IMG/VR virus record: IMGVR_UViG_2858635475_000003
Span: 1,400 to 65,399 of that record
From: a virus
DNA length: 64,000 nt
Reading direction: 5' to 3' (one strand)
Position 1 is the stretch's first letter. Every line of letters starts with the position of its first letter. A program made the position numbers and the translations under genes. Below, piece by piece: positions 12,748-39,555 of the stretch. The notes under the pieces are model-generated. The model was given only the letters and a program-made list of their open reading frames with translations, searched no databases and had not been told where the DNA came from.

Positions 12748-12812
12748 TCAACTGTTTGTTGATTATGTAAACTGCTTGGGGTATGGTCATCGCAGTCACA
12801 AAGGAGATTGCG

Positions 12813-14219
12813 ATGACAGTTACTGGAAAAGATTTGATTGCGGCGGGCGCCGTGCCTGGAAAGTGGTTTCCGGAAGCTCTGCGTCTGATAAACGAAGAAG
12901 GTCTGACCATTCCGCAAGCGGTCGCGAGATGCGAACCCGCTCCTGCGTTGCCCCTGAGCCCCGCCCATTCGAAACCGATTTACGAAAACATCCGGTCCGA
13001 GAATGAGGCCGAAATGGCGAATGTTCTGGCCGTAAAACGCACTATGCAAGAAGTGATGCGCACGCCGGTCACGATCGCAGGCGCGATTATGCCAGATGCT
13101 TGCCCTGCCGGCCCGCTCGGAACGATTCCTGTCGGAGGCATCGTATCATCGACCGAAATCCATCCCGGTATGCATTCCGCCGACATCTGCTGCTCAATGG
13201 CAATCACTATCTTCGACGCCGCGGCGGATCCGAAAGAGCTTCTCGATGCTGTGAAAGAGGTTACCCACTTCGGACCAGGCGGTCGTCAGTTCGGCAACCA
13301 TGCGCTGAAAGCGGGAGAGTTTCGAGGCATCACTGACAGCGACAACCCCTTTCTTCAGGAGGCGAAAAAGTTGGCCTCGTCACATTTTGCCACACAAGGT
13401 GACGGAAACCATTTTGCCTATGTCGGGCGAATGAAGTCGGACGGTAAGGTTGCATTGGTGACCCACCACGGCTCTCGCGGTCCCGGCGCTATGCTCTACA
13501 AAGCAGGCATGCGGGTGGCCGAAAAGAACACTCGCGAAGTCTCACCTGAGACCCTGAAACAGAACGCCTGGATCAAGTCCGACAGCCGCGACGGCGAGCT
13601 TTATTGGGACGCCTTACAACATATCCGCAGGTGGACCAAAGCCAGCCATTTCCAAATCCATGACGATGCGGCGAAACTGTACCGTATGAACGTCAAGTCG
13701 GCCGGCTTCCGCACTCTGATGATCGAAGATCGATTTTGGAACGAGCACAACTTCGTTTTCAGGAAAAGCGATGGATTTTTCTATCACGCAAAGGGCGCGA
13801 CCCCTGCCTTCCTCAATTGGGCTGATGATGCCGGCGATCGAACCATCATTCCCTTGAACATGGGTGAGCCGATCTTGATTGTGCGCGGGCGCGATGCGCC
13901 CCATTCACTCGGGTTCTCGCCTCACGGCGCCGGCCGAAACTTCTCCCGCACTCAACACAAGCGTCTTATGGAGGGTCGCACCGACGAGGAAATCTTTGCC
14001 GAAGAAACCGCTCACATCGATGCACGCTTCTTCCTGGGCATCACCGATATTTCAGAGTTGCCGAGCGCATACAAAAACGCAGCGGCAGTGCGGGCGCAGA
14101 TCAACGAGTTCGGTCTGGCCGATATCGTTGATGAGGTGATCCCGTATGGCTGCATTATGGCCGGCGACTGGGAGCGGGATGCACCATGGAAGAAATCGCG
14201 GAAAGGCGGTGAAGCATGA
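12813..14219 (+). CDS. rtcB: RtcB-family RNA 3'-phosphate ligase
   Basis: RtcB signature blocks GDGNHF, HHGSRG and HGAGR. ATG at 12813 has an AAGGAG SD; an alternative upstream start at 12783 lies nearer the dyad motif. Confidence 0.85.
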   Translation: MTVTGKDLIAAGAVPGKWFPEALRLINEEGLTIPQAVARCEPAPALPLSPAHSKPIYENIRSENEAEMANVLAVKRTMQEVMRTPVTIAGAIMPDACPAGPLGTIPVGGIVSSTEIHPGMHSADICCSMAITIFDAAADPKELLDAVKEVTHFGPGGRQFGNHALKAGEFRGITDSDNPFLQEAKKLASSHFATQGDGNHFAYVGRMKSDGKVALVTHHGSRGPGAMLYKAGMRVAEKNTREVSPETLKQNAWIKSDSRDGELYWDALQHIRRWTKASHFQIHDDAAKLYRMNVKSAGFRTLMIEDRFWNEHNFVFRKSDGFFYHAKGATPAFLNWADDAGDRTIIPLNMGEPILIVRGRDAPHSLGFSPHGAGRNFSRTQHKRLMEGRTDEEIFAEETAHIDARFFLGITDISELPSAYKNAAAVRAQINEFGLADIVDEVIPYGCIMAGDWERDAPWKKSRKGGEA

Positions 14220-15859: not shown

Positions 15860-17002
15860 TTATTCGCCCGCTGGAACCGCAAGCTTGGCGCCGCCCATAT
15901 CCAGAGCAGGAAGTCCTTGATCCGTTTGCAACATCTTCGCCTTGGAGAGAGCAGTGACGCGGGGTCGAACGATTCTACGATATAGCCAATCTTCGGCTAT
16001 CCCGAAAAGGACACCTCCCGTGAGGCTGACCGTAATCATTATCGTAAATCGTTGAACCTCAGTGAGCGACGAGGTCATTTCTCCGACCAGAAAAATGATC
16101 GGGAAGTGGATTAGATATATCCCATACGACCAGCTACCCATCGAATTAATGTGTTTGGACACACGGTCGATCGGGTTCCTGATATTCGAAGCCGAATAGG
16201 TGATCCCAAGGCACGTGACAAGCAACAAGAATTGCCACAGAAACTGGTGCCGTTGTGCGAGTATGGTTACCACGCCCACCAAGGTCAGGAACACGCTCAG
16301 CGGGCCGTGCCTACCCTGTTTGGCAAGCGCCAGAAGCGCACCGCCGATGAAATACAAACCATAAGGGGACTGCCACACCATGGCCCCGAACAAACCATCA
16401 GGTGGCTCGGGAAAATTCGGGTACACGTAAAGAAGGGTTGCCGCCCACGCAACCATGAGCCAACCGTAAAACTGCCGCGGCATCAACATGATCAACGCGG
16501 TGATGAAGTAGAAATAGACCTCAAAATTCAACGTCCAGTACGGAACGCCGCTCCAACTGGCGTGTGATTTGCCCATCGGAAGCAAAAGAATGGAAGGGTC
16601 GAAAGAAATCTGTTCAGGTCGCACAGTCCCTCCCCCGACCATCATTGCGGTCCCGAGGACAAGAGCCACAAGATAACCGGGGTAAATGCGAGCAAGACGA
16701 AGGGTGATGAATGTGTTGACGCTAGAATGACGGGTCAGACACATAACGTAACCCGATATCACGAAGAAAATTAGCACTCCGACATTGCCAACATTCAGCG
16801 TCAGCCAATATTGATTGACAGGTTCCCACGGTCCATGTGGATTGGCCGGCGACGACCAGGCGAAAAGTGACGCGTGGAAGACAAGAACCAGGAGAGCGGT
16901 GCAAAATCTAAGACCTTGAATGCCGACGAGTTTACCGTCCCCCGCGCTCTTACCGTAATCCCCTATTGCCAAAGTCCCGCCTCCCGAGCCATTTATTAGC
17001 AT
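15860..17002 (-). CDS. acyltransferase family 3 membrane protein (candidate O-antigen/LPS acetyltransferase, lysogenic-conversion moron)
   Basis: Acyltransferase_3 N-terminal signature (GLRFCTALLVLVFHAS) and about 10 predicted TM helices. Oppositely oriented to the flanking phage genes. Confidence 0.75.
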   Translation of the reverse strand: MLINGSGGGTLAIGDYGKSAGDGKLVGIQGLRFCTALLVLVFHASLFAWSSPANPHGPWEPVNQYWLTLNVGNVGVLIFFVISGYVMCLTRHSSVNTFITLRLARIYPGYLVALVLGTAMMVGGGTVRPEQISFDPSILLLPMGKSHASWSGVPYWTLNFEVYFYFITALIMLMPRQFYGWLMVAWAATLLYVYPNFPEPPDGLFGAMVWQSPYGLYFIGGALLALAKQGRHGPLSVFLTLVGVVTILAQRHQFLWQFLLLVTCLGITYSASNIRNPIDRVSKHINSMGSWSYGIYLIHFPIIFLVGEMTSSLTEVQRFTIMITVSLTGGVLFGIAEDWLYRRIVRPRVTALSKAKMLQTDQGLPALDMGGAKLAVPAGE

Positions 17003-17138: not shown

Positions 17139-17696
17139 CTAAGCCCCAAGCACGTCCTCGAATTGAGCCATAGGGTTGGTGCGGCCATAAACTCTGAAAT
17201 TCACGTTACCGACCTTCCGTTCAAGACCGGTCGGCTGCCACCCGCCTTTTGTGAATGCCCGCTCAATCTTTCGGATTGGGCTCGCGTGCTCCCGCGACAA
17301 TCCGTTTGGGTCGACGCCAAAAAGGTTCTGCAAGACTGCCGCTGCGGTTATGGTGTGGCGCCGCGACTTTAGGAACTCGCGAACAAGCTTCTGATCCACA
17401 TTCCCAATGTCAAGCGGTTCTATGACCGATGCTTGATGGCCGGAAGGATAGTACATCCAATGTTGACGACCATCGATCCGTGCTCTGTCGCCACCCTTAA
17501 GCCATCCGCAATATGTCGACAGCACTATGCTCATTCGGTGCGCAACGTGCACGTCGTATTCGCTTGGGTCGCAACCAAGTGCTTCAACCCAAACCTGCTC
17601 GCAATAAGTTACGTCCTTGTCGCGCAGCCATTCTCGGATCTTATGAACCTGTTCGGATAGCTCCGACGTGTGATTAAGGGTCTTCATTTTTCTCAT
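17139..17696 (-). CDS. hypothetical protein ending QFEDVLGA
   Basis: 185 aa with no recognised domain. C-terminal F-E-D-V-L-G-A joins the recurrent tail-motif family. Lies next to the iteron region. Confidence 0.55.
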   Translation of the reverse strand: MRKMKTLNHTSELSEQVHKIREWLRDKDVTYCEQVWVEALGCDPSEYDVHVAHRMSIVLSTYCGWLKGGDRARIDGRQHWMYYPSGHQASVIEPLDIGNVDQKLVREFLKSRRHTITAAAVLQNLFGVDPNGLSREHASPIRKIERAFTKGGWQPTGLERKVGNVNFRVYGRTNPMAQFEDVLGA

Positions 17697-18293: not shown

Positions 18294-18500
18294 TCAAACG
18301 TAACGGTATGACGACAAGCCCGCGCTAACGCTATGTGAAGCTAACGCAATGAGGCCATCACATGTTACGTTCAGGTCGGTATGACAAGAATTGCATAAAC
18401 CCGTAACATGTGACGGTCTCGGTATGACAAGAAAGGTTTGCTTACCCACGGCGCATAAGTCCACAAACGGTTGACTATCTAACGCTATGACTGTATGAAA
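18294..18500. repeat. palindrome/direct-repeat cluster (CACATGTTACG..CGTAACATGTG inverted repeat; GGTATGACAAG x3; GCTAACGC x3)
   Basis: Read directly. Immediately upstream of the first plus-strand gene of the accessory cluster. Confidence 0.7.
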
Positions 18501-19083: not shown

Positions 19084-19163
19084 CCTGCCCCCATAATCAA
19101 CAAACAGTTGACTATTGCGTAACGCTGTGAGATAACAGACTCAACGAAACGGAGACGAGACAA

Positions 19164-19445: not shown

Positions 19446-19472
19446 AACTCAACCATTTGGGGATATATCACC

Positions 19473-19751
19473 ATGACAACTATCCGCACCATAGACCCCG
19501 CCATTCGGGAACATATCACGGGCACGGCACGCGGGTTTGCCGCTCTTGGATTGCTGGCAGGCGCCGGCTTGGCGGCAATGCTGCCGGTCGTTCTGCCGCT
19601 TGAACGCGATCGCACTTATGACCTTGTACAAGTGTCGCCAGACGGCGAGTCCGATATCGTCGATTATAATTTGAGTGCGACGGATTGCGGTTTTCTGAAA
19701 GAACGCCTGCAGGCTGCCGGTTATGAAATGCTGTGCGAACGCACGCGCTAA
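19473..19751 (+). CDS. hypothetical protein
   Basis: Dyad motif plus GGGGA directly upstream of the ATG. Confidence 0.4.
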   Translation: MTTIRTIDPAIREHITGTARGFAALGLLAGAGLAAMLPVVLPLERDRTYDLVQVSPDGESDIVDYNLSATDCGFLKERLQAAGYEMLCERTR

Positions 19752-19772
19752 CAATCAACCATTTGGGGATTA

Positions 19773-20237
19773 ATGATCATGACGAAACAATCCTTTCCAC
19801 ACTTCGATTCCTTCGTTTGCGACGGCGACACTGTATCGCTTGAAATTGAGGGTTTCACCCTTACAGCCACAATCTACCGTGACGACGATTGCAGCGCGCC
19901 CAATAAGCGGCAAGACGGTTTCTGGCCGTCTCTTGATCCAAGTAATGACGGCTATATTGGCGCAAAGTCCAAATCAACGCTTGCCCGTCATATGGCGCGA
20001 GCCCGCGAAGTTTTGCGGTCATGGTGCGCTGATGAATGGTTTTATGTCGGCGTGGCCGTGACTGTCGAAAAAGACGGCGTGCAACTCACTGGCGACTATG
20101 ACCATGCGCTGTGGGGTATCGAATGCAATTACCCGTTTGGCCGCAATCCTAACCACTATCTGAGTTCAGTTGCGGACGATTATATCGGCGAAGCTCTTGA
20201 CGCGGCACGGGCAAAGATTGCCAAGTTGGCGGCGTAA
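19773..20237 (+). CDS. hypothetical protein
   Basis: Dyad motif plus GGGGA directly upstream; 154 aa. Confidence 0.5.
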   Translation: MIMTKQSFPHFDSFVCDGDTVSLEIEGFTLTATIYRDDDCSAPNKRQDGFWPSLDPSNDGYIGAKSKSTLARHMARAREVLRSWCADEWFYVGVAVTVEKDGVQLTGDYDHALWGIECNYPFGRNPNHYLSSVADDYIGEALDAARAKIAKLAA

Positions 20238-20565: not shown

Positions 20566-20686
20566 GTTGCTCACCTAAAATCGTCACTCAATAATCAACA
20601 AACGGTTGACTAATGCATAACACTGTGAGATAACCGGAACAACGAAACAAGAGCGCGCCGCGCTGCCACACTGAGGAGTCAAGGGA

Positions 20687-21352: not shown

Positions 21353-21384
21353 CCTATAAGTCAACTATTTGGGGATTTATCAAC

Positions 21385-21600
21385 ATGAAAAGACTCGATT
21401 ATTGGCAGGCCCGCACGTTGGCGTCGACATTCGGTTTCAATCCGCTCGAAGATTTCCACGCTATGAGCACGGCCAGCAAAGAAGCCGTCATTCGTGCGGC
21501 CGACTCGGTGAAATACCGCCAGCCCAAAAACTCAAACGGGAGTCGTGGGCGATACTTCGCTGCCTACATCCGCCGCCTTATCGAAAAAGGGGACATCTGA
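21385..21600 (+). CDS. hypothetical protein
   Basis: Motif GTCAACtatttGGGGAtttatcaacATG. Confidence 0.4.
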   Translation: MKRLDYWQARTLASTFGFNPLEDFHAMSTASKEAVIRAADSVKYRQPKNSNGSRGRYFAAYIRRLIEKGDI

Positions 21601-22057: not shown

Positions 22058-22085
22058 ATAGTCAACCTTTTGTGGAGATGAAAAC

Positions 22086-22310
22086 ATGTCATTCGATCCA
22101 AGATTTGAAGCGTATGCGCAACACGGCAAGGCGGGCGAACCAATGCGGACAGAACGTGTTGACGTGCGTTTACGCCCTTCCCCTGCCGGTCACTATCAGG
22201 TCAAGCTTTTCGGCCGTTGGTTGCGCTTGCGGACAGATAAAAACGGCAAGGGATACGTGCTTACGCAAGACGGCGAAATAGCAATCAACCTTGTGCGGAA
22301 TGACGCCTGA
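22086..22310 (+). CDS. hypothetical protein
   Basis: Motif AGTCAACcttttGTGGAGatgaaaacATG. Confidence 0.4.
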   Translation: MSFDPRFEAYAQHGKAGEPMRTERVDVRLRPSPAGHYQVKLFGRWLRLRTDKNGKGYVLTQDGEIAINLVRNDA

Positions 22311-22327: not shown

Positions 22328-22350
22328 AGGCGCGTTCCACGGCGCGCCCT
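22328..22350 (+). terminator. GC-rich hairpin (GGCGCG-ttccac-GGCGCGCC) after gene 22086..22310
   Basis: Inverted repeat followed by a T-containing stretch. Confidence 0.3.
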
Positions 22351-22375: not shown

Positions 22376-22555
22376 ATGACGAAAATTGAAAAGTGGGCTG
22401 CGCGTGTTTTTGATGACGCTAACCGCCTTCTAGCTGAAAAGATTTGTGTAGGTGAAGTGGTCGCACGAATTGAGGGAGATCGTCTGTTGAGACGGCAAAA
22501 TCCTAAGGCAAATGCGCGACTTTTCATTGCCCCAACAGGGGAATTTTTCGAATGA
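22376..22555 (+). CDS. hypothetical small protein
   Basis: GGGAG SD with an ATG at 22376. Confidence 0.35.
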   Translation: MTKIEKWAARVFDDANRLLAEKICVGEVVARIEGDRLLRRQNPKANARLFIAPTGEFFE

Positions 22556-23841
22556 CACACGCCATGCTCAACACAAAAACCGGAATCCCGCTCAATAAGG
22601 CAAACCGGCATGGCCTCATAACCGGCCAAACCGGAACCGGCAAAACCGTCTCACTGCAACGCCTCACTGAGCAATTCAGCAAGGCAGGCGTGCCAGTCTT
22701 TATCAGTGACGTGAAAGGCGACATTGCCGCTCTTTCGCGATCCTGCCCTACTCAGTTTCTTGACGTTTTCGGGCAAACCGGAAAGCCGCTCAAAGCGGCC
22801 ATTTCCGCCATGGGTGCGGACTTAATGGCGCGTGCCCTGGAATTGACGGATACACAATCCGGCGTGCTCGAAATAGCGTTTGCTTATGCCCGCGATAGCG
22901 GCGCACCGCTGGCCACGATTGCCGATCTGCGGCAATTGCTTTCTGCCATTTCTGAGGACTCGGATTATGTGAATCGGCAGTATGGCCAGATATCGAAAGC
23001 AAGCGTTGGCGTGATTATGCGCGCCCTGTTGCGCCTGGAAACACAAGGCGGCAACGCCTTTTTCGGCAATCCGCAATTCGACGTGGCGGCATTGCTGGAA
23101 ACGATAGAAGAAAAAGTGCAGTTGCCCAACTTCGCTAACGCATTTCACGGTCGTCCACGTTCGCCGGATATCACCTTAGTAACAGACCGACGCGGTCAAG
23201 TTTCCATCCTGCAGGCCGAACGCCTCATTAACTCGCCACGGGTTTACGCGGCCTTCCTGCTATGGCTTCTAACGGAGCTATGGGAACGCCTGCCGGAAAT
23301 AGGCGACATGGATAAGCCGCGACTCGTCATGTTCTTTGATGAGGCACACTTGCTTTTCAGTGAGATCAACCCTGCCCTGTTGCGGCGGATTGAGCAAACC
23401 GTGCGCCTCATCCGCTCCAAAGGCGTTGGCGTCTATTTCGTCACGCAATCCCCCGACGACGTGCCGCACGCCATTCGGGAACAACTGGCATTCCAGATTG
23501 TGCATGATCGTGCCTATCGTATCGGGCAAGCGCACGTTTCCGGTCTCACACAAGACGGCAGGCCGGTTAATCATGGCCTTGTTCAAATCGACTTGCCGGA
23601 ATGCCCGCTAGGCGCGTTGACGGACGACGAGAAACCCGCCGCGCCGGTCACAGTTGAACCCATGGCCGAAAAGCCGCAATGGGCGCGCATGGGCAAGCCA
23701 GAGATTGCGCTGTTACTTGTGATCCTGGTAGCAGGCGGGTTTGTGTCATATGGGCTTGTATGGGCATGGGCGGCCGGTACAATCGGCAAGCTTGCAGCAA
23801 TCGGTTTTGCCGTGGCAATCGCTGGTGTTTTGAGGGGGTGA
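22552..23841 (+). CDS. P-loop NTPase (HerA/FtsK/TraD- or Zot-like) with C-terminal double-TM anchor
   Basis: Walker A ITGQTGTGKT and Walker B LVMFFDEAH. C-terminal hydrophobic segments IALLLVILVAGGFVSYGLVWAWAAGTIGKLAAIGFAVAIAGVL. Confidence 0.65.
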   Translation: MTHAMLNTKTGIPLNKANRHGLITGQTGTGKTVSLQRLTEQFSKAGVPVFISDVKGDIAALSRSCPTQFLDVFGQTGKPLKAAISAMGADLMARALELTDTQSGVLEIAFAYARDSGAPLATIADLRQLLSAISEDSDYVNRQYGQISKASVGVIMRALLRLETQGGNAFFGNPQFDVAALLETIEEKVQLPNFANAFHGRPRSPDITLVTDRRGQVSILQAERLINSPRVYAAFLLWLLTELWERLPEIGDMDKPRLVMFFDEAHLLFSEINPALLRRIEQTVRLIRSKGVGVYFVTQSPDDVPHAIREQLAFQIVHDRAYRIGQAHVSGLTQDGRPVNHGLVQIDLPECPLGALTDDEKPAAPVTVEPMAEKPQWARMGKPEIALLLVILVAGGFVSYGLVWAWAAGTIGKLAAIGFAVAIAGVLRG

Positions 23842-23846
23842 GGGAA

Positions 23847-24116
23847 ATGACCTATAGGGTTAGATTCATCAATCCCGACTTCACTAGACCGCCTGCAACG
23901 AACGTGTTTTGTGCACGCTGTGAAAGGGATATAAAGGAAGGCAAGCCGCGCCGATATATCTGCTATGAATTCGAAACCATGTCTGCAGTTCATCCGGACG
24001 ATTGGGAAAAGGCCAGATTTTCGAATCCTGTTGAATTCGCTTTTGCAGTTCTGCCCGTGGGCATGGATTGCGCAAAACGTATCGGGTTAGATTGGACGAA
24101 AGAGAGCGCGGAATGA
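23847..24116 (+). CDS. hypothetical protein
   Basis: GAGGGGGTGAGGG SD. Confidence 0.4.
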   Translation: MTYRVRFINPDFTRPPATNVFCARCERDIKEGKPRRYICYEFETMSAVHPDDWEKARFSNPVEFAFAVLPVGMDCAKRIGLDWTKESAE

Positions 24117-24298
24117 TTATCAACGGACAAGTGAAACACCCTGCCAGCGATGGAACGTACCACGACTCATGGTTTGCCGCGTGGCGTCGGTCACTGTCAT
24201 ATAGCATTTTCATGGGAACCTATGACGGCAGGCCGGAGTCGTGCGGTTATGGCTGGAACAAGGAAACGGGAAAGCCGATGGATCGTCATAAGGAGTGA
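24113..24298 (+). CDS. hypothetical small protein
   Basis: ATGA-coupled. Confidence 0.4.
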   Translation: MIINGQVKHPASDGTYHDSWFAAWRRSLSYSIFMGTYDGRPESCGYGWNKETGKPMDRHKE

Positions 24299-24489
24299 TG
24301 AATATGGATGATGCATGGATTGAGGGCGCGAATGCTGCCTATGACGGTAAATCTCGCAGCGCTAACCCTTACAGTTCCGCTCATAGTTTTTCTAGAAAAG
24401 ACCTTTGGAATGAAGGCTGGCTTTATGCTGCAAAACGAATAGCGATTCGCAAAATTGAAAAAGAGCGTGGTATATCAGACGACACTTGA
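24295..24489 (+). CDS. hypothetical small protein
   Basis: Coupled ORF. Confidence 0.4.
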   Translation: MMNMDDAWIEGANAAYDGKSRSANPYSSAHSFSRKDLWNEGWLYAAKRIAIRKIEKERGISDDT

Positions 24490-24512: not shown

Positions 24513-24540
24513 GGCCCGCCTTAGAGCGGGCTTTTTGTTG
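24513..24540 (+). terminator. rho-independent terminator GGCCCGC-cttaga-GCGGGC-TTTTTGTTG
   Basis: Stem, loop and U-tract read directly. Confidence 0.6.
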
Positions 24541-24845
24541 TCCGTAGACCTGATTTTTATCTGCCCACGGTACAGCCTTTTCGGTTCCGTTTTCAGCCGG
24601 AATCCCCATATCTGCAAAACCCGCCGTAGAAGGCCGCACAGCGCGATTCCCGCATTTGCGCCATAACCGGACTCGCAACCCGTGAAAGCGTTTTCTTGGT
24701 GTTGCCAGCGACAGATATGAGGGGATTTTGACAGGACGGAGCCCGCCGTTTTGGCCGAAAATCACGGTTCGAGAGCGACGGCAACCATTCCCGATCGACG
24801 ACGTGGAGGCTTTGCGACCAGGCGGCCGGCCCGATTTCCCGTTTT

Positions 24846-25026: not shown

Positions 25027-25077
25027 ACAACTGTTTGTGGATTTTCGCATTGACTTTATCAACAAAATGTTGATTAT
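25027..25077 (+). promoter_or_regulatory. tandem pair of dyad motifs (CAACtgtttGTGGATttt ; ATCAACaaaatGTTGATtat) upstream of the BRCT gene
   Basis: Representative of the motif family found at more than 30 gene starts. Confidence 0.5.
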
Positions 25078-25114
25078 CGGATTAAAGATTGAACGCGAGC
25101 CCGAGGAGTCGGCG

Positions 25115-26467
25115 ATGAGTGAGTTGGGAATTTACGAGGGGTGTTACGTCCATCTCCGGAAGGGTGACGTGGTCGGGCCCCTTACGAAGGATGAAAACGC
25201 AGACCCTCTATACCAGTGGAGGGGCCCAAACGGTTTGTCCTGGTCGTCATCCGGCAAAGTTCTGCTTTCGGAATACGAGTTCCCGAATGACATCGTCCGC
25301 GTGATGCCGAAAGACGCAATCAAGTTGACGATGTCCAAGACATACGGCGACTTCTCCAAGCTCGGCGACTTCTCCAAGCTCGGCCAAGCCACCATCCCGC
25401 CCCACGTCACCAAGGCCGCAATGGACGCCGGCATCAAGGCCGACCCTGCCTACGAGCATTTCGTGAATGCGATACTGACGGCTGGCTTCAAGGCGCAGTA
25501 TGAGATCGAGTTCGTGCCGGTGGGTGAGATTATAGAACTCGCAAAGAACCTCATTGACGCCATTGATATGGAGCCGAGAGAGGCGTGGGGTTGCCGCAAC
25601 GTCGAGAGACCGAAATGGGAACGTCAAGTTTACGGGCCTGCGATCCGTGCGCTGAAATCGGCGTTTGAAAAAATTCCCAAAAACGAATCTGAAAAAAGGA
25701 TTCCGGATTCCGAAAAACCCAAAGGGGGTCTGAGCGGTCTACCACTCGAAGGCGTGACCATCTGCTTCACCGGCAGCATGAACATGCCCGTCGATACGCA
25801 CAAAGGGATTGCGGAAGCTCTCGGTGCCAAGGTTTCCGGCAGCGTCCATTCGAACACCACGCTGGTCGTCTTCGGAGCGGGCGCTCAATCGAAGCTCGAC
25901 AAGGCTATTGCGCATGATCTTCCCCGGATGAGCGAGAAAGCCTGGTTGTGGCTCGCCGGTCTGCTCGGATACGGCAAGCCGGAACATGTGAGCCCATACG
26001 GGAAGATCGGCGCACCCATTTCCAGGGCCGGCGAGAAGGTGCTTTTCGAAGTCCTGAAGCAGCGGTCGCGGGCAGATATCCCATCGGTGCAGACGATCGA
26101 CGAAGCTATCAGAGCAGCAGTTCGGGAATGGCGTGATAATAACCCCGTGGCCGTGATTCCACCGTCCCATTACATCGCCAAGAAGGTCCATGCGGCGATG
26201 GCGTGTGCATCCGGCGAGGATGTCGTCCATCTCGTGGCGCCGGAAGGTTGGTATCTCCACGAGTGCAAGCACGAGCACACCCCGCACCGGTTTGCAGGAC
26301 AGACGGTGGCCCCCTCAGACCATCCCGGTGGCGCGTGGTCCGTCGATTTCCAGCGCATTCAAAATGGTGGGATGCTAACTGGTGGCCGTGGAAAGACTCT
26401 TGTCGAAGCCTGGCAGAACGCGGTGGCGGCAATCAAACTCGCTGAAGAACACGGGCTTGACATTTAA
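25115..26467 (+). CDS. BRCT domain-containing protein with GDFSKL tandem repeat
   Basis: BRCT-like block GVTICFTGSMNMP...LVVFGAGAQSKLDKA. An 18-bp exact tandem duplication (25346-25381) encodes GDFSKLGDFSKLG. Confidence 0.6.
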   Translation: MSELGIYEGCYVHLRKGDVVGPLTKDENADPLYQWRGPNGLSWSSSGKVLLSEYEFPNDIVRVMPKDAIKLTMSKTYGDFSKLGDFSKLGQATIPPHVTKAAMDAGIKADPAYEHFVNAILTAGFKAQYEIEFVPVGEIIELAKNLIDAIDMEPREAWGCRNVERPKWERQVYGPAIRALKSAFEKIPKNESEKRIPDSEKPKGGLSGLPLEGVTICFTGSMNMPVDTHKGIAEALGAKVSGSVHSNTTLVVFGAGAQSKLDKAIAHDLPRMSEKAWLWLAGLLGYGKPEHVSPYGKIGAPISRAGEKVLFEVLKQRSRADIPSVQTIDEAIRAAVREWRDNNPVAVIPPSHYIAKKVHAAMACASGEDVVHLVAPEGWYLHECKHEHTPHRFAGQTVAPSDHPGGAWSVDFQRIQNGGMLTGGRGKTLVEAWQNAVAAIKLAEEHGLDI

Positions 26468-36075: not shown

Positions 36076-36125
36076 GCAAATAATCAACATATAGTTGACT
36101 AACACCACAAAAAGGAGTCGGGCGA

Positions 36126-37956: not shown

Positions 37957-39555
37957 ATGACGACAATCACCCTGCACCCCGGCGATAACATTCTTTCAAT
38001 GAGAGGGATGGCGGAAAACAGCGTGCATAGCGTGGTGACAGACCCGCCGTATATGCTCACAAGCATCGTCAAGCGCTTTGGAAAAGAAGGTTCTGCGCCA
38101 GCCAAGACTTCTGGTAATGACGGTTCTTTTGCACGCCTTTCGGCTGGTTTCATGAACAAACAGTGGGACTCTCCAAGAGTGGAATTGCCGCCATTGAGTT
38201 CTGACTTCGGTCATTACATGGCAGGCTTGATTGACGGGGAAGGATGTTTTCATGTGCATCGGAAACTGGTAAACAACTGTGAGACCTACGACTGCCAATT
38301 TTCAATAACCCTCCGCTCTGATGACAAAGACATTCTCGTGGAGATGCAGCGCCAACTCGGCGGCATAGGCTCCTTGGCTCATCGGCCAGCGCGTGACAAC
38401 GCCAATAGCCAAGCGCGCTTCTGCATTAGCTCGAAAGCACATTGTCAGGTTCTACGGGCGGCTCTAAGCGTATTTCCATTGCGCGCAAAAAAGGCTCGTG
38501 ACTTTGAGATTTGGTGTCATGCACTTGATGCATGGGTCAATCACGAACCGAAATCCTCATGGGAAGACGTGTCTTTCTATCGTGACCAATTGATGATGGT
38601 GAAGCGTTTCGGAAGCCTCTATAAGCCCGAATTCCTTTTCCACTATCGTTGGGCCAAAGAAGCTTTCAGAGTTCTAAAACCAGGCGGCTGCATATTCGCC
38701 TTCTCCGGATCTCGCACTGGCCACTGGCAGGCAGCCGCCATGGAACTTGCAGGTTTTATCATGCATCCTATGCACGGTTGGTGTTTTGGATCTGGAATGC
38801 CGAAGCCTACCAATTTAAAAGGCGTTCCCGGTTACGAGGGGTGGGGTTATGGCACGCAAACACAGAAGCCTGCTCTGGAACCCATATACCTCGGTCAGAA
38901 GCCTTTCAGCGAAAAGACAGGTCCACTTAATGTTTTGAAGCACGGCGTGGGCGGTTTCAATCTTGAGGATTGTTCTGTCCCAAGTGCCAAGGGTGACCCC
39001 CGCCGACCCGCCAATCTGATCCTCGACGGCTCGCCGGAAGTGGTTGCGATGTTCCCTGACTCCAAAGGGCAGCAAGGCGCTGTGCGCGGCGATGAGCCTA
39101 GCGGTGTCACGAAGGATATCTACGGCAAGTTCAATGGCCGCGTTCCAGCGCCAGTCCGTGGTGACAGCGGTTCCGCAGCACGGTTCTTCCACCAGTTCGG
39201 ACCTGACGCCGACCCGCTGATCTATCACGGTAAAGCCGGCAAAACGGATCGCGCTGGCGGCAATCATCCCACGGTCAAGCCGATCGCCCTCATGAAGTAT
39301 CTCATCCGGCACATCACGCCACCTGGCGGCATTGTGCTCGACCCGTTCGCCGGCAGCGGCACCACAGGCGAAGCGGCGAAGCGTGAGGGCATGGACTGCA
39401 TTCTCATGGAAGCCGAGCCCGAATACATCGAATTTCTGGAAAAGCGGTTCGACATCGCAAAACCGGAGTTCGATTTCGACGACATCCTCGGCGAAGCTTT
39501 GCCGATCAAATCAACAAATAGTGGAGATACGTTTCATGACATTCTCGGTGCTTGA
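37957..39555 (+). CDS. beta-class (CcrM-type, DPPY) N6-adenine/N4-cytosine DNA methyltransferase with embedded LAGLIDADG domain and double DxxDILG tail
   Basis: Motif IV VVTDPPYML near the N-terminus and motif I LDPFAGSGTT near the C-terminus (beta order). Between them lies YMAGLIDGEGCF (LAGLIDADG). The C-terminus reads DFDDILGEALPIKSTNSGDTFHDILGA*. Confidence 0.8.
   Translation: MTTITLHPGDNILSMRGMAENSVHSVVTDPPYMLTSIVKRFGKEGSAPAKTSGNDGSFARLSAGFMNKQWDSPRVELPPLSSDFGHYMAGLIDGEGCFHVHRKLVNNCETYDCQFSITLRSDDKDILVEMQRQLGGIGSLAHRPARDNANSQARFCISSKAHCQVLRAALSVFPLRAKKARDFEIWCHALDAWVNHEPKSSWEDVSFYRDQLMMVKRFGSLYKPEFLFHYRWAKEAFRVLKPGGCIFAFSGSRTGHWQAAAMELAGFIMHPMHGWCFGSGMPKPTNLKGVPGYEGWGYGTQTQKPALEPIYLGQKPFSEKTGPLNVLKHGVGGFNLEDCSVPSAKGDPRRPANLILDGSPEVVAMFPDSKGQQGAVRGDEPSGVTKDIYGKFNGRVPAPVRGDSGSAARFFHQFGPDADPLIYHGKAGKTDRAGGNHPTVKPIALMKYLIRHITPPGGIVLDPFAGSGTTGEAAKREGMDCILMEAEPEYIEFLEKRFDIAKPEFDFDDILGEALPIKSTNSGDTFHDILGA

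What the first reader, a model, noticed from the sequence alone, without database searches (positions are those of the whole stretch)
22552..23841. P-loop NTPase with C-terminal double transmembrane anchor, flanked by hairpin terminators and tiny ORFs
Walker A/B ATPase of the FtsK/HerA/TraD or Zot-like kind, with the hydrophobic anchor confined to the last 45 residues. This is unusual for a tailed-phage accessory gene. Candidate roles include superinfection exclusion by blocking DNA entry at the membrane, a defence or anti-defence ATPase, or DNA translocation. It is bracketed by a GC hairpin (22328-22350) and a strong terminator (24513-24540), suggesting an independently regulated cassette together with three downstream micro-ORFs.
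Basis: partly seen in the sequence, partly recalled or inferred. Interest (0 to 1): 0.55.

Follow-up and report, generated by a model that had tools for sequence, protein, structure and literature searches.

The report
Membrane-anchored YjgR-type ATPase of a phage
The gene encodes a phage copy of the widespread but uncharacterised YjgR/DUF853 HerA-like ATPase. Its usual C-terminal tail is replaced by a membrane anchor, so the family is known and the architecture and function are the open points.

Summary
The ORF at 22552-23841 (+, 429 aa) is real. Walker A/B are intact and the only strongly hydrophobic stretch lies in the last 45 residues. It belongs to a known family: Pfam PF05872 (HerA_C, formerly DUF853/YjgR) at 372.7 bits, about 50% identical over residues 17-318 to cellular YjgR, whose structure is solved (PDB 11kk).

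The window is a Casjensviridae-like temperate siphophage of Agrobacterium. Its closest isolate, Rhizobium phage RHph_X2_30, carries a 63%-identical gene annotated DUF853 with the same hydrophobic C-terminus.

- The gene is not rare in tailed phages: 31 GenBank phage records and 63 IMG/VR loci have relatives.
- It is not the packaging motor: the window has a portal and the relative has its own terminase.
- It has no conserved partner gene.
- The three downstream micro-ORFs are lineage-specific insertions between the ATPase and its conserved terminator.
- Family-wide, C-termini are either basic amphipathic helices or TM anchors, and the two have interchanged at least 7 times. This suggests the whole family works at the membrane.

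Most likely it is a hexameric ATP-driven translocase tethered to the inner membrane and made during lytic growth. Its substrate and biological role are untested.

The parts
22552..23841 (+). CDS, 429 aa: YjgR/DUF853 (PF05872) HerA-like P-loop ATPase with a C-terminal membrane anchor
   Evidence: ORF list. Pfam PF05872 E=3.6e-111, 372.7 bits. PDB 11kk YjgR E=8.4e-78. AF2 pLDDT 91.5. Fold matches to HerA, TrwB and VirB4.
22624..22647 (+). Walker A, GQTGTGKT (residues 25-32)
   Evidence: Motif search. G25, T27, G28, G30 and K31 are invariant in 86 homologues.
23326..23343 (+). Walker B, VMFFDE (residues 259-264)
   Evidence: Motif search. D263, E264 and H266 are invariant.
23704..23766 (+). TM1, residues 385-405 (IALLLVILVAGGFVSYGLVWA)
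   Evidence: Hessa-scale sum -1.1 to -1.6 kcal/mol. Kyte-Doolittle segment. AF2 helix 382-407. Present in nearly all of the short homologues P0001-P0090.
23776..23832 (+). TM2 or second helix of the hairpin, residues 409-427 (GTIGKLAAIGFAVAIAGVL). Ala/Gly-rich and only marginally hydrophobic.
   Evidence: Hessa-scale sum +1.6 to +3.1 kcal/mol. AF2 helix 410-428. A G-x-x-G-K turn and a basic C-terminal end recur in the closer members of the clade.
22376..22555 (+). 59-aa ORF whose stop overlaps the ATPase start (ATGA). No family match; replaced by non-homologous small ORFs in relatives.
   Evidence: Gene call on an identical contig. No Pfam or PHROG hit. Comparison of upstream ORFs.
22086..22310 (+). 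74-aa ORF, preceded at exactly -24 nt by the recurrent TCAACyWTTTGkGGA motif
   Evidence: No family match.
22329..22348 (+). GC-rich hairpin (8-bp stem, 4-nt loop) without a T-run, upstream of the unit that contains the ATPase
   Evidence: Fold dG -15.5, z -1.7. Single copy in the window. Same sequence in L005 and L006; a different GC stem at the equivalent place in L001 and L007 and at -54 to -100 nt in L008, L009 and L034.
23847..24116 (+). 89-aa micro-ORF, no family match, not conserved next to the ATPase in relatives
24113..24298 (+). 61-aa micro-ORF, no family match, not conserved next to the ATPase in relatives
24304..24489 (+). 61-aa micro-ORF with weak, sub-threshold similarity to ribosome modulation factor
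   Evidence: Pfam PF04957 23.3 bits, below the 27.9 cut-off.
24513..24542 (+). Intrinsic terminator that ends the transcription unit
   Evidence: Terminator scan. Fold dG -19.8, z -2.9. A terminator-like hairpin with a T-run (shown in full for L006, L007, L009 and L064) lies 16-32 nt after the ATPase stop in L006, L007, L009, L034 and L064, and at +200 nt in L005.
25027..25073 (+). Two copies of the recurrent 15-nt motif plus a promoter-like TTGACT-16-GATTAT: the probable start of the next unit (BRCT-domain gene)

Best explanation
The gene encodes a phage-borne member of the YjgR/DUF853 branch of the HerA-FtsK superfamily of ring ATPases.

**Shown**
- The ATPase core (residues about 1-345) is about 50% identical to cellular YjgR over residues 17-318, and all nucleotide-binding motifs are intact.
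- About 23 residues after position 64 are absent relative to canonical YjgR, and the region after residue 318 no longer aligns: the canonical proteins' longer C-terminal region and basic amphipathic tail are not present.
- In place of that tail are a short disordered linker and a hydrophobic helical hairpin (residues 385-427).
- The gene is a conserved single gene in the early/accessory block of about 65-70 kb siphophages and prophages of Rhizobiales. It usually lies directly upstream of an intrinsic terminator and has no conserved partner gene.

**Inferred**
- The protein assembles, like HerA, TrwB and YjgR (six chains in PDB 11kk), into a hexameric ring.
- The C-terminal hairpin is inserted post-translationally, N-in/C-in, and tethers the ring to the cytoplasmic face of the inner membrane.
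- There the protein uses ATP to translocate a polymer, most probably double-stranded DNA, during the lytic programme.
- Candidate tasks are handling phage DNA at the membrane, namely completion of genome entry or anchoring of replicating DNA, and less probably keeping out competing DNA.

It is not the packaging motor, and it is not a self-contained moron cassette.
For: **Family and fold**
- PF05872 at 372.7 bits against a cut-off of 22.
- PDB 11kk 'HerA like helicase YjgR' at E=8.4e-78.
- 50% identity to a 507-aa canonical member over residues 17-318.
- The AF2 model has pLDDT 91.5. Its best fold matches are the HerA hexameric DNA translocase 4d2i, the coupling protein TrwB, VirB4 and DndH.

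**Membrane anchor**
- TM1 has a negative insertion dG.
- The anchor is present in nearly all of the ~90 short homologues and in phage RHph_X2_30.
- Of 131 diverse family representatives with enough sequence to judge, 37 end in a TM segment and 53 end in a basic amphipathic helix of the form xxRGxLGxLxRRR.
- The canonical tail has a helical hydrophobic moment of 0.63, the same as the FtsA membrane-targeting helix at 0.62.
- On a tree of the ATPase core the two tail types interchanged at least 7 times, against 29.5 expected from shuffled labels. This argues that they are functionally equivalent membrane-binding devices.

**Phage context**
- The window encodes DNA polymerase, helicase, primase, portal, protease, tape measure and tail proteins.
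- The relative RHph_X2_30 has its own large and small terminase subunits and an integrase.
- The same position, downstream of the primase and amid small early genes, is seen in Sinorhizobium, Mesorhizobium and metagenomic relatives.
- The terminator after the gene is conserved.
- E. coli YjgR binds ATP in lysate (bioRxiv 10.1101/2025.04.28.650974).
Against: - No experiment exists for any member of the family. As of 2025 YjgR is still described as uncharacterised.
- Hexamer formation, membrane insertion, substrate and timing of expression are all inferred.
- TM2 is only marginally hydrophobic, so the topology could be a single-pass tail anchor.
- The amphipathic-tail argument rests on crude hydrophobicity and hydrophobic-moment thresholds and a neighbour-joining tree.
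- Members of this superfamily also move proteins (VirB4, and EssC-type ATPases from general knowledge), so DNA is not the only possible substrate.
- No DNA-binding domain or nuclease partner was found.
Confidence: 0.55

Rival explanations
1. Superinfection-exclusion or defence ATPase. Expressed from the prophage, the membrane-anchored ring blocks or reverses entry of incoming phage DNA, or it acts as the motor of an abortive-infection system.
For: - The protein has a membrane anchor and a DNA-translocase fold.
- The identical protein also occurs on a 2.97-Mb contig, consistent with a prophage in an Agrobacterium chromosome.
- There are weak PADLOC hits to mad8 (E=7e-14) and to defence-type HerA models.
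- The unit is bounded by a conserved hairpin and a terminator.
Against: - Known HerA defence systems pair the ATPase with an effector, as in the Sir2-HerA and HerA-DUF4297 complexes seen in the fold search. No conserved neighbour exists here.
- The gene is co-oriented with the early block and translationally coupled to it. It lies about 22 kb from the putative regulator at the window's left end.
- The obvious lysogenic-conversion gene of this window is elsewhere and on the opposite strand: the acyltransferase at 15860-17002.
- Relatives sit in phage genomes of 240-309 kb.
- The PADLOC scores are far below the PF05872 score.
Confidence: 0.15
2. Soluble or only peripherally attached DNA helicase/translocase for phage replication or repair, like HerA-NurA. 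The hydrophobic C-terminus would be an oligomerisation or partner-binding element rather than a membrane anchor.
For: - The best fold matches are HerA.
- Canonical YjgR was solved as a soluble protein and was detected in lysate.
- TM2 is marginal.
- The gene sits among replication and nucleotide-metabolism genes.
Against: - TM1 is a 21-residue segment with a negative predicted insertion energy, and it is conserved across the clade.
- No NurA-like nuclease or HerA N-terminal barrel (HAS) domain was detected. The ATPase P-loop starts at residue 25, and NCBIfam HerA scored 16.6 bits against a cut-off of 800.
Confidence: 0.15
3. Virion assembly or genome-packaging ATPase, of the Zot/pI type of filamentous phages or the A32/P9 type of membrane-containing phages.
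For: - Architecture resembles Zot: an N-terminal P-loop domain followed by a membrane segment.
- There are weak hits to Pfam Zot (E=0.0083) and to PHROG 'Zot-like toxin' and 'terminase large subunit'.
Against: - Zot scores 16.0 bits, below its 20.3 cut-off.
- The terminase PHROG hit covers only the P-loop, residues 13-62.
- The phage is a tailed siphovirus with portal, protease and tape measure, and its relative has its own large and small terminase subunits.
- The gene lies in the early block, not the structural module.
Confidence: 0.03
4. Protein-translocating or secretion-type ATPase (VirB4/EssC-like) that exports a phage protein or remodels a membrane complex. Alternatively, a dominant-negative mimic that poisons the host's own YjgR hexamer.
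For: - VirB4 and coupling proteins are among the fold matches, with sub-threshold NCBIfam VirB4/TrbE hits.
- A host-type YjgR copy exists in Rhizobiales (P0112, Mesorhizobium), at about 44% identity to the phage protein.
Against: - There are no secretion-system genes nearby.
- All NCBIfam scores are far below their cut-offs.
- No evidence bears on mixed hexamers.
Confidence: 0.07

Closest known systems
YjgR / DUF853 (Pfam PF05872 HerA_C; E. coli YjgR, PDB 11kk)
   Same: The ATPase core is about 50% identical over residues 17-318 and shares the invariant motifs: ANRHG, Walker A, DVKGD, Walker B DEAH and RLIRSKG. The beta-hairpin 'GxA.VS.L...G.P' after the core is also retained.
   Different: - Phage-borne.
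- Lacks a 23-aa insert after residue 64, the helical segment after H318 (about 30 aa), and the C-terminal region with its basic amphipathic tail.
- Carries a TM hairpin instead, and a variable 25-aa insertion at residues 185-209.
- The family itself has no known function.
Rhizobium phage RHph_X2_30 protein QXV73545.1 (annotated 'protein of unknown function DUF853')
   Same: 63% identity over 96% of the length, the same C-terminal hydrophobic hairpin, the same genome type (Casjensviridae, 69.7 kb, temperate), an upstream small ORF overlapping by ATGA, and a terminator downstream.
   Different: The upstream small ORF is not homologous, and there are no micro-ORFs between the ATPase and the terminator.
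Type IV coupling proteins (TrwB/VirD4/TraD)
   Same: HerA-FtsK-type fold. From general knowledge of TrwB: a hexameric ring held at the inner membrane by two TM helices per subunit.
   Different: The TM helices of coupling proteins are N-terminal; here they are C-terminal. There is no relaxase or T4SS context. NCBIfam TraD scores are far below their cut-offs. The Pfam TrwB_AAD_bind hit covers only the P-loop region 12-57.
HerA of HerA-NurA repair and of Sir2-HerA / DUF4297-HerA defence systems
   Same: Best structural matches (4d2i, 9x1m, 8wiv, 8ziq). These are ring translocases acting on dsDNA.
   Different: No N-terminal HAS barrel, no nuclease or Sir2 partner gene, only 13-17% identity, and a membrane anchor.
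Zot / pI assembly ATPase of filamentous phages
   Same: An N-terminal P-loop domain followed by a membrane-spanning segment, encoded by a phage.
   Different: The Pfam Zot score is below its cut-off (16.0 against 20.3). Zot has a single TM followed by a periplasmic domain and works with a secretin in extrusion; this phage is tailed and uses portal-type packaging, with a terminase annotated in its relative.

Membership tests
YjgR/DUF853 (Pfam PF05872 HerA_C) | Profile score above the curated gathering threshold over the ATPase core | tested here: met
   372.7 bits against a cut-off of 22, E=3.6e-111. Solved YjgR 11kk at E=8.4e-78.
YjgR/DUF853 (Pfam PF05872 HerA_C) | Intact Walker A, Walker B (DEAH) and family-invariant residues | tested here: met
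   GQTGTGKT 25-32 and VMFFDEAH 259-266. 40 columns are invariant across 86 sequences and all are present in this protein.
YjgR/DUF853 (Pfam PF05872 HerA_C) | Full-length canonical architecture: about 500 aa with a C-terminal helical region and a basic amphipathic tail (xxRGxLGxLxRRR) | tested here: not met
   429 aa. The alignment to canonical members stops at residue about 319. The tail is replaced by a TM hairpin. It is therefore a variant, not a typical member.
YjgR/DUF853 (Pfam PF05872 HerA_C) | Hexameric ring; ATP binding and hydrolysis | not testable with these tools
   PDB 11kk holds six chains, and E. coli YjgR is stabilised by ATP. Neither property was tested for this protein.
HerA (HerA-NurA repair or HerA defence modules) | Family-specific profile score, N-terminal HAS domain, adjacent NurA/Sir2/DUF4297 partner | tested here: not met
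   NCBIfam HerA_Thermprot 16.6 bits against a cut-off of 800. PADLOC HerA E values of 4e-8 or weaker. The P-loop starts at residue 25. No conserved neighbour.
Type IV coupling protein (TrwB/VirD4/TraD) | N-terminal TM helices, all-alpha domain, T4SS/relaxase neighbourhood, family profile | tested here: not met
   The TM helices are C-terminal. TraD models score 13.6-17 bits against cut-offs above 360. The PF10412 hit is restricted to residues 12-57. The neighbours are phage genes.
Zot / pI (Pfam PF05707) | Profile score above threshold; filamentous-phage assembly context | tested here: not met
   16.0 bits against a cut-off of 20.3. The genome is a tailed phage with a portal, and its relative has a terminase.
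Terminase large subunit / packaging ATPase | Full-length match to a terminase family; position in the structural module | tested here: not met
   The phrog_2666 match covers only residues 13-62. The relative carries separate large and small terminase subunits next to the portal. The gene is in the early block.
FtsK/SpoIIIE | Pfam PF01580 above threshold; N-terminal TM domain | tested here: not met
   PF01580 14.8 bits against a cut-off of 24, over residues 13-38 only.

The most novel reading that the evidence does not exclude
Six subunits contribute twelve C-terminal helices. The second helix has a face of small residues (A415/A419/A423 and G417/A421/G424). Together the helices could form a membrane pore continuous with the central channel of the ATPase ring. 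That would make a one-gene DNA pump across the inner membrane, an inverted-topology analogue of TrwB or SpoIIIE. The phage might use it to finish pulling in its own genome or to expel rival DNA. By extension, the whole uncharacterised YjgR/DUF853 family would be a membrane-associated translocase whose C-terminal amphipathic helix is its membrane-targeting sequence.
Probability: 0.12. Interest if true: 0.75.

Novelty: new variant of a known kind. Interest (0 to 1): 0.36.

Why it matters
YjgR/DUF853 is a widespread ATPase family: 562 cluster representatives at E<=1e-30. It has a solved structure but, in the literature searched here, no known function. The phage clade found here replaces the family's conserved basic amphipathic tail with an integral membrane anchor, and the two tail types have interchanged repeatedly. 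This gives a concrete, testable hypothesis that the family acts at the cytoplasmic membrane. The family's presence in phages from Rhizobiales prophages to jumbo phages points to a general phage need for it. For phage biology, it is a candidate for membrane steps that are poorly understood in siphophages: completion of DNA entry, membrane anchoring of replication, or exclusion. The gene itself is already annotated in databases, and nothing here demonstrates a function.

Tried and rejected
1. **Conserved partner genes.** I compared all ORFs within 2.5 kb of the ATPase in 43 loci all-against-all by BLAST, and inspected gene calls in five further contexts. No neighbour family is shared beyond close relatives. 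The upstream ORF that overlaps by ATGA differs in each lineage.

2. **Three micro-ORFs as part of a cassette.** Rejected. They are absent or different in L001, L005, L006 and L007, where the terminator is close to the ATPase stop.

3. **Packaging ATPase or Zot.** Rejected.

4. **Defence-system membership.** PADLOC gave only weak mad8 and HerA hits and there is no partner gene.

5. **RNA element in the flanks.** Rfam at relaxed threshold gave only a sub-threshold Trp-leader hit over the terminator. The 0.6-kb region after the terminator aligns poorly among relatives, apart from the terminator and the promoter-like motif. There are no tRNAs in the window.

6. **Plasmid origin.** No plasmid match.

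7. **Literature.** Searches for YjgR, DUF853, HerA-like, PF05872, and superinfection exclusion with FtsK found no functional study of the family or of the phage variant. Iyer et al. 2004 is not held.

8. **Upstream hairpin as a repeated element.** It is single-copy in the window.

9. **Tail of E. coli YjgR.** An attempt to read it from the PDB alignment failed because the alignment stops at residue 441.
Full report
**1. Observation**

The ORF is present exactly as described: 22552..23841, + strand, ATG start, 429 aa.
- Walker A (GQTGTGKT, residues 25-32) and Walker B (VMFFDE-AH, 259-266) are intact.
- Both lie in columns invariant across 86 homologues.
- The only strongly hydrophobic stretch is at the C-terminus.
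- Residues 385-405 have a summed Hessa-scale insertion energy of about -1.1 to -1.6 kcal/mol.
- Residues 409-427 are Ala/Gly-rich and marginal, at +1.6 to +3.1 kcal/mol.
- An AlphaFold2 model built on the family alignment is confident (mean pLDDT 91.5). It places two helices, 382-407 and 410-428, after a disordered linker around residues 374-377.

The flanking elements are also real.
- The downstream terminator at 24513-24540 has a 7-bp stem with 6 GC pairs followed by a T-run, at dG -19.8 kcal/mol and z -2.9.
- The upstream hairpin at 22329-22348 has an 8-bp GC stem, dG -15.5 and z -1.7. It lacks a T-run and is not called a terminator.
- The small ORFs are called as genes on an identical public contig: 74 aa and 59 aa upstream, and 89, 61 and 61 aa downstream.

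**2. What the protein is**

The protein is not an orphan.
- It scores 372.7 bits (E=3.6e-111) against Pfam PF05872, HerA_C, the former DUF853/YjgR family.
- It scores E=8.4e-78 against PDB 11kk, 'HerA like helicase YjgR'.
- It is 50% identical to a canonical 507-aa member over residues 17-318.
- Every other profile hit is weak, partial or below its curated cut-off. This covers AAA_22, DUF87, TrwB_AAD_bind, Zot, FtsK, NCBIfam CedD/VirB4/TraD/HerA, PHROG terminase and Zot-like, and PADLOC mad8/HerA.
- The model's best structural matches are the HerA hexameric DNA translocase (4d2i), HerA-NurA, DndH, the coupling protein TrwB, VirB4, and the HerA subunits of Sir2-HerA and DUF4297-HerA defence complexes.
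- Among predicted viral structures the top match is the HerA_C protein of Klebsiella phage YMC16/01/N133.
- The exact sequence is already in NCBI as 'helicase HerA-like domain-containing protein [Agrobacterium radiobacter]'.

**3. Genomic setting**

The window is almost a whole tailed-phage genome.
- Replication genes: SNF2-type helicase, DNA polymerase, exonuclease, Prim-Pol primase and an RtcB ligase.
- Other non-structural genes: thymidylate synthase and a methyltransferase.
- Structural genes, on the minus strand: endolysin, tail proteins, tape measure, major tail protein, protease and portal.
- The identical ATPase is found on a 69.5-kb contig and on a 2.97-Mb contig, which fits a prophage.
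- The nearest isolate is Rhizobium phage RHph_X2_30 (Casjensviridae, 69.7 kb). It carries a 63%-identical gene annotated 'protein of unknown function DUF853'.
- That phage has its own large and small terminase subunits, a portal and an integrase. The DUF853 protein is therefore not the packaging motor, and the phage group is temperate.
- The ATPase sits in the long + strand block of small early or accessory genes downstream of the primase. The same position is seen in Sinorhizobium, Mesorhizobium and metagenomic relatives.

**4. How common it is**

- tblastn finds relatives in 31 GenBank phage records. These include Rhodobacter phages, a Klebsiella phage, the 309-kb Xanthomonas phage Xoo-sp13 and 240-kb Acinetobacter phage contigs.
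- A pattern scan finds 63 IMG/VR loci.
- An exhaustive HMMER search of 1.84 billion cluster representatives gives 562 at E<=1e-30 and 2263 at E<=1e-10.

**5. The C-terminus is the interesting part**

- Among the 120 best database hits, the ~90 short proteins (about 280-437 aa; Agrobacterium, Rhizobium, Sinorhizobium, Mesorhizobium, Bosea, Roseibium and many phage-sized contigs) almost all end in one or two hydrophobic helices.
- The roughly 500-aa canonical proteins end in a conserved basic amphipathic motif such as GREIVRGVLGSILGGRRR.
- Of the 63 viral loci, 31 end in a TM segment and 12 in a basic amphipathic helix. Several of the rest have hydrophobic tails just under my thresholds.
- Of 150 diverse family representatives, 131 had enough sequence after Walker B to judge. 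Of these, 37 end in a TM segment, 53 in a basic amphipathic tail and 41 in neither; several of the 41 look truncated or narrowly miss the thresholds.
- The canonical tail has a helical hydrophobic moment of 0.63, the same as the FtsA membrane-targeting helix at 0.62.
- On a neighbour-joining tree of the ATPase core (89 sequences, 289 columns), the tail type is phylogenetically structured but has switched at least 7 times by parsimony. Shuffled labels give 29.5.
- My inference is that amphipathic tail and TM anchor are interchangeable ways of attaching this ATPase to the membrane. The window's protein belongs to a large TM-anchored clade.
- This is an inference from crude predictors, not a demonstration.

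**6. The 'cassette'**

No neighbour gene is conserved with the ATPase beyond close relatives.
- In the window, L001, L007 and L064 (and possibly L006), a small ORF ends in ATGA overlapping the ATPase start. The sequences of these ORFs are unrelated to one another.
- Downstream, the three micro-ORFs have no family match, except a sub-threshold RMF-like hit for the third.
- The micro-ORFs are missing in relatives. A terminator-like hairpin lies 16-32 nt after the ATPase stop in L006, L007, L009, L034 and L064. It lies at +200 nt in L005, after a different small ORF, and at +661 nt in the window.
- The micro-ORFs therefore appear to be insertions between the ATPase and its terminator.

Upstream, a GC-rich hairpin is positionally conserved.
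- The stem sequence is the same in L005 and L006. It is different in L001 and L007, and in L008, L009 and L034.
However, the upstream element is not a canonical terminator.
- The gene is co-oriented with the early block and translationally coupled to the ORF immediately upstream.
- A 15-nt motif, TCAACyWTTTGkGGA, occurs 31 times in the window against 0.7 expected. It lies at 22062 and 22285 upstream of the unit and at 25027 and 25059 downstream of it.
- The unit is therefore one of many similarly punctuated segments rather than a special cassette.

**7. Mechanism**

Shown:
- Family membership, an intact active site and a HerA/TrwB-like fold.
- A C-terminal hydrophobic hairpin conserved in the clade.
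- Position in the early block, absence of a partner gene, and presence of a separate terminase in the relative.

Inferred:
- Hexameric ring, by analogy with HerA, TrwB and the six chains of 11kk.
- Post-translational N-in/C-in insertion of the hairpin.
- Action at the cytoplasmic face of the inner membrane as an ATP-driven translocase, most probably of dsDNA, during lytic growth.

Which task it performs cannot be decided here. The candidates are completion of genome entry, membrane anchoring of replicating DNA, and exclusion of other DNA. I rank 'lytic-cycle DNA handling at the membrane' above 'prophage-expressed exclusion or defence' for four reasons:
- Its position and translational coupling.
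- The lack of an effector partner.
- Its distance from the putative regulator at the window's left end.
- Its presence in jumbo-sized phage genomes.

**8. Comparison and novelty**

- The protein is a member of PF05872 by sequence but not by architecture.
- It lacks about 23 aa after residue 64, about 30 aa after H318 and the canonical C-terminal region and tail. It has a TM hairpin instead.
- In working principle it most resembles a type IV coupling protein with inverted topology. It fails every membership test for coupling proteins, FtsK, Zot, HerA-NurA, defence HerA and terminase (see the membership table).
- The literature held here contains no functional study of YjgR/DUF853 or of the phage variant.
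- I therefore class it as a new variant of a known kind, of moderate interest. The gene is already annotated and common. The membrane-anchor pattern does give a testable hypothesis for an uncharacterised, widespread ATPase family.

Noticed in passing
window, 31 sites on both strands, e.g. 19449, 19755, 21361, 22062, 25027, 25059, 28477, 31008, 34374, 50268: A 15-nt motif TCAACyWTTTGkGGA (in its perfect form the palindrome TCAAC-N5-GTTGA) occurs 31 times with up to 2 mismatches, against 0.7 expected. The strict palindrome occurs 10 times against 0.3 expected. The sites checked lie just upstream of ORF starts. It is probably the binding site of a phage or host regulator, or a phage-specific promoter or operator.
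   Followed up: partly
window 19449-19475, 19755-19781, 21361-21387, 22062-22088: In four copies the motif starts exactly 24 nt upstream of the ATG of a called gene, so its GGGGA/GTGGA end sits where a Shine-Dalgarno sequence is expected. This suggests control at, or overlapping, translation initiation.
   Followed up: partly
window 18455-18478, 19092-19150, 20590-20648, 25050-25079, 36079-36102: Longer repeats combine the palindrome with TTGACT and a -10-like hexamer about 17 nt downstream. Two 58-nt copies are 86% identical, at 19093 and 20591. These look like operator-bearing early promoters. The one at 20590 may drive the operon that ends at the terminator after the ATPase.
   Followed up: no
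window 25115-26467 (+); called from 24959 on the public contig: The next gene encodes a roughly 450-aa protein with a BRCT domain (Pfam PF00533, E=6e-8) and no ligase catalytic domain. It is conserved downstream of the ATPase unit in the window, L001, L005 and L007. It contains a tandem 18-nt repeat (25348-25386, GDFSKL GDFSKL).
   Followed up: partly
window 12783-14219 (+): An RtcB-type RNA ligase (PHROG 'tRNA splicing ligase', E=3e-90) sits next to the primase. RtcB enzymes rejoin cleaved RNA, so it might serve RNA repair; this was not examined.
   Followed up: no
window 15860-17002 (-) and 17139-17696 (-): An Acyl_transf_3 / O-antigen acetylase-like gene lies on the strand opposite to the early block. 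It is the most moron-like, lysogenic-conversion-type gene in the window, in contrast to the ATPase.
   Followed up: no
window 37957-39555 (+): A 532-aa ORF has DNA methyltransferase matches at residues 3-36 and 226-508, interrupted by an HNH endonuclease match at residues 86-191. This may be an HNH insertion or fusion within a methyltransferase gene.
   Followed up: no
window 24304-24489 (+): A 61-aa ORF has sub-threshold similarity to ribosome modulation factor (PF04957, 23.3 bits against a cut-off of 27.9).
   Followed up: partly
L007 7822-7911 (-) and L068 9822-9911 (-): In the Sinorhizobium meliloti prophage relative, a tRNA-Ser(GCT) lies on the opposite strand in the variable region just after the ATPase terminator. 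The window has no tRNA at all.
   Followed up: partly
proteins P0092-P0120 and P0129-P0265 (canonical YjgR relatives): Many canonical members of about 450-750 aa end in a conserved basic amphipathic motif (xxGRxIxRGxLGxLxGxRRR) with a hydrophobic moment like known membrane-targeting helices. I found no description of this in the literature held here.
   Followed up: partly
window residues 185-209 of the ATPase (nt 23104-23178): A 25-aa insertion relative to canonical YjgR, modelled as part of a beta-hairpin with lower confidence (pLDDT 75-80). Close relatives at 83-90% identity range from 398 to 437 aa in length.
   Followed up: no
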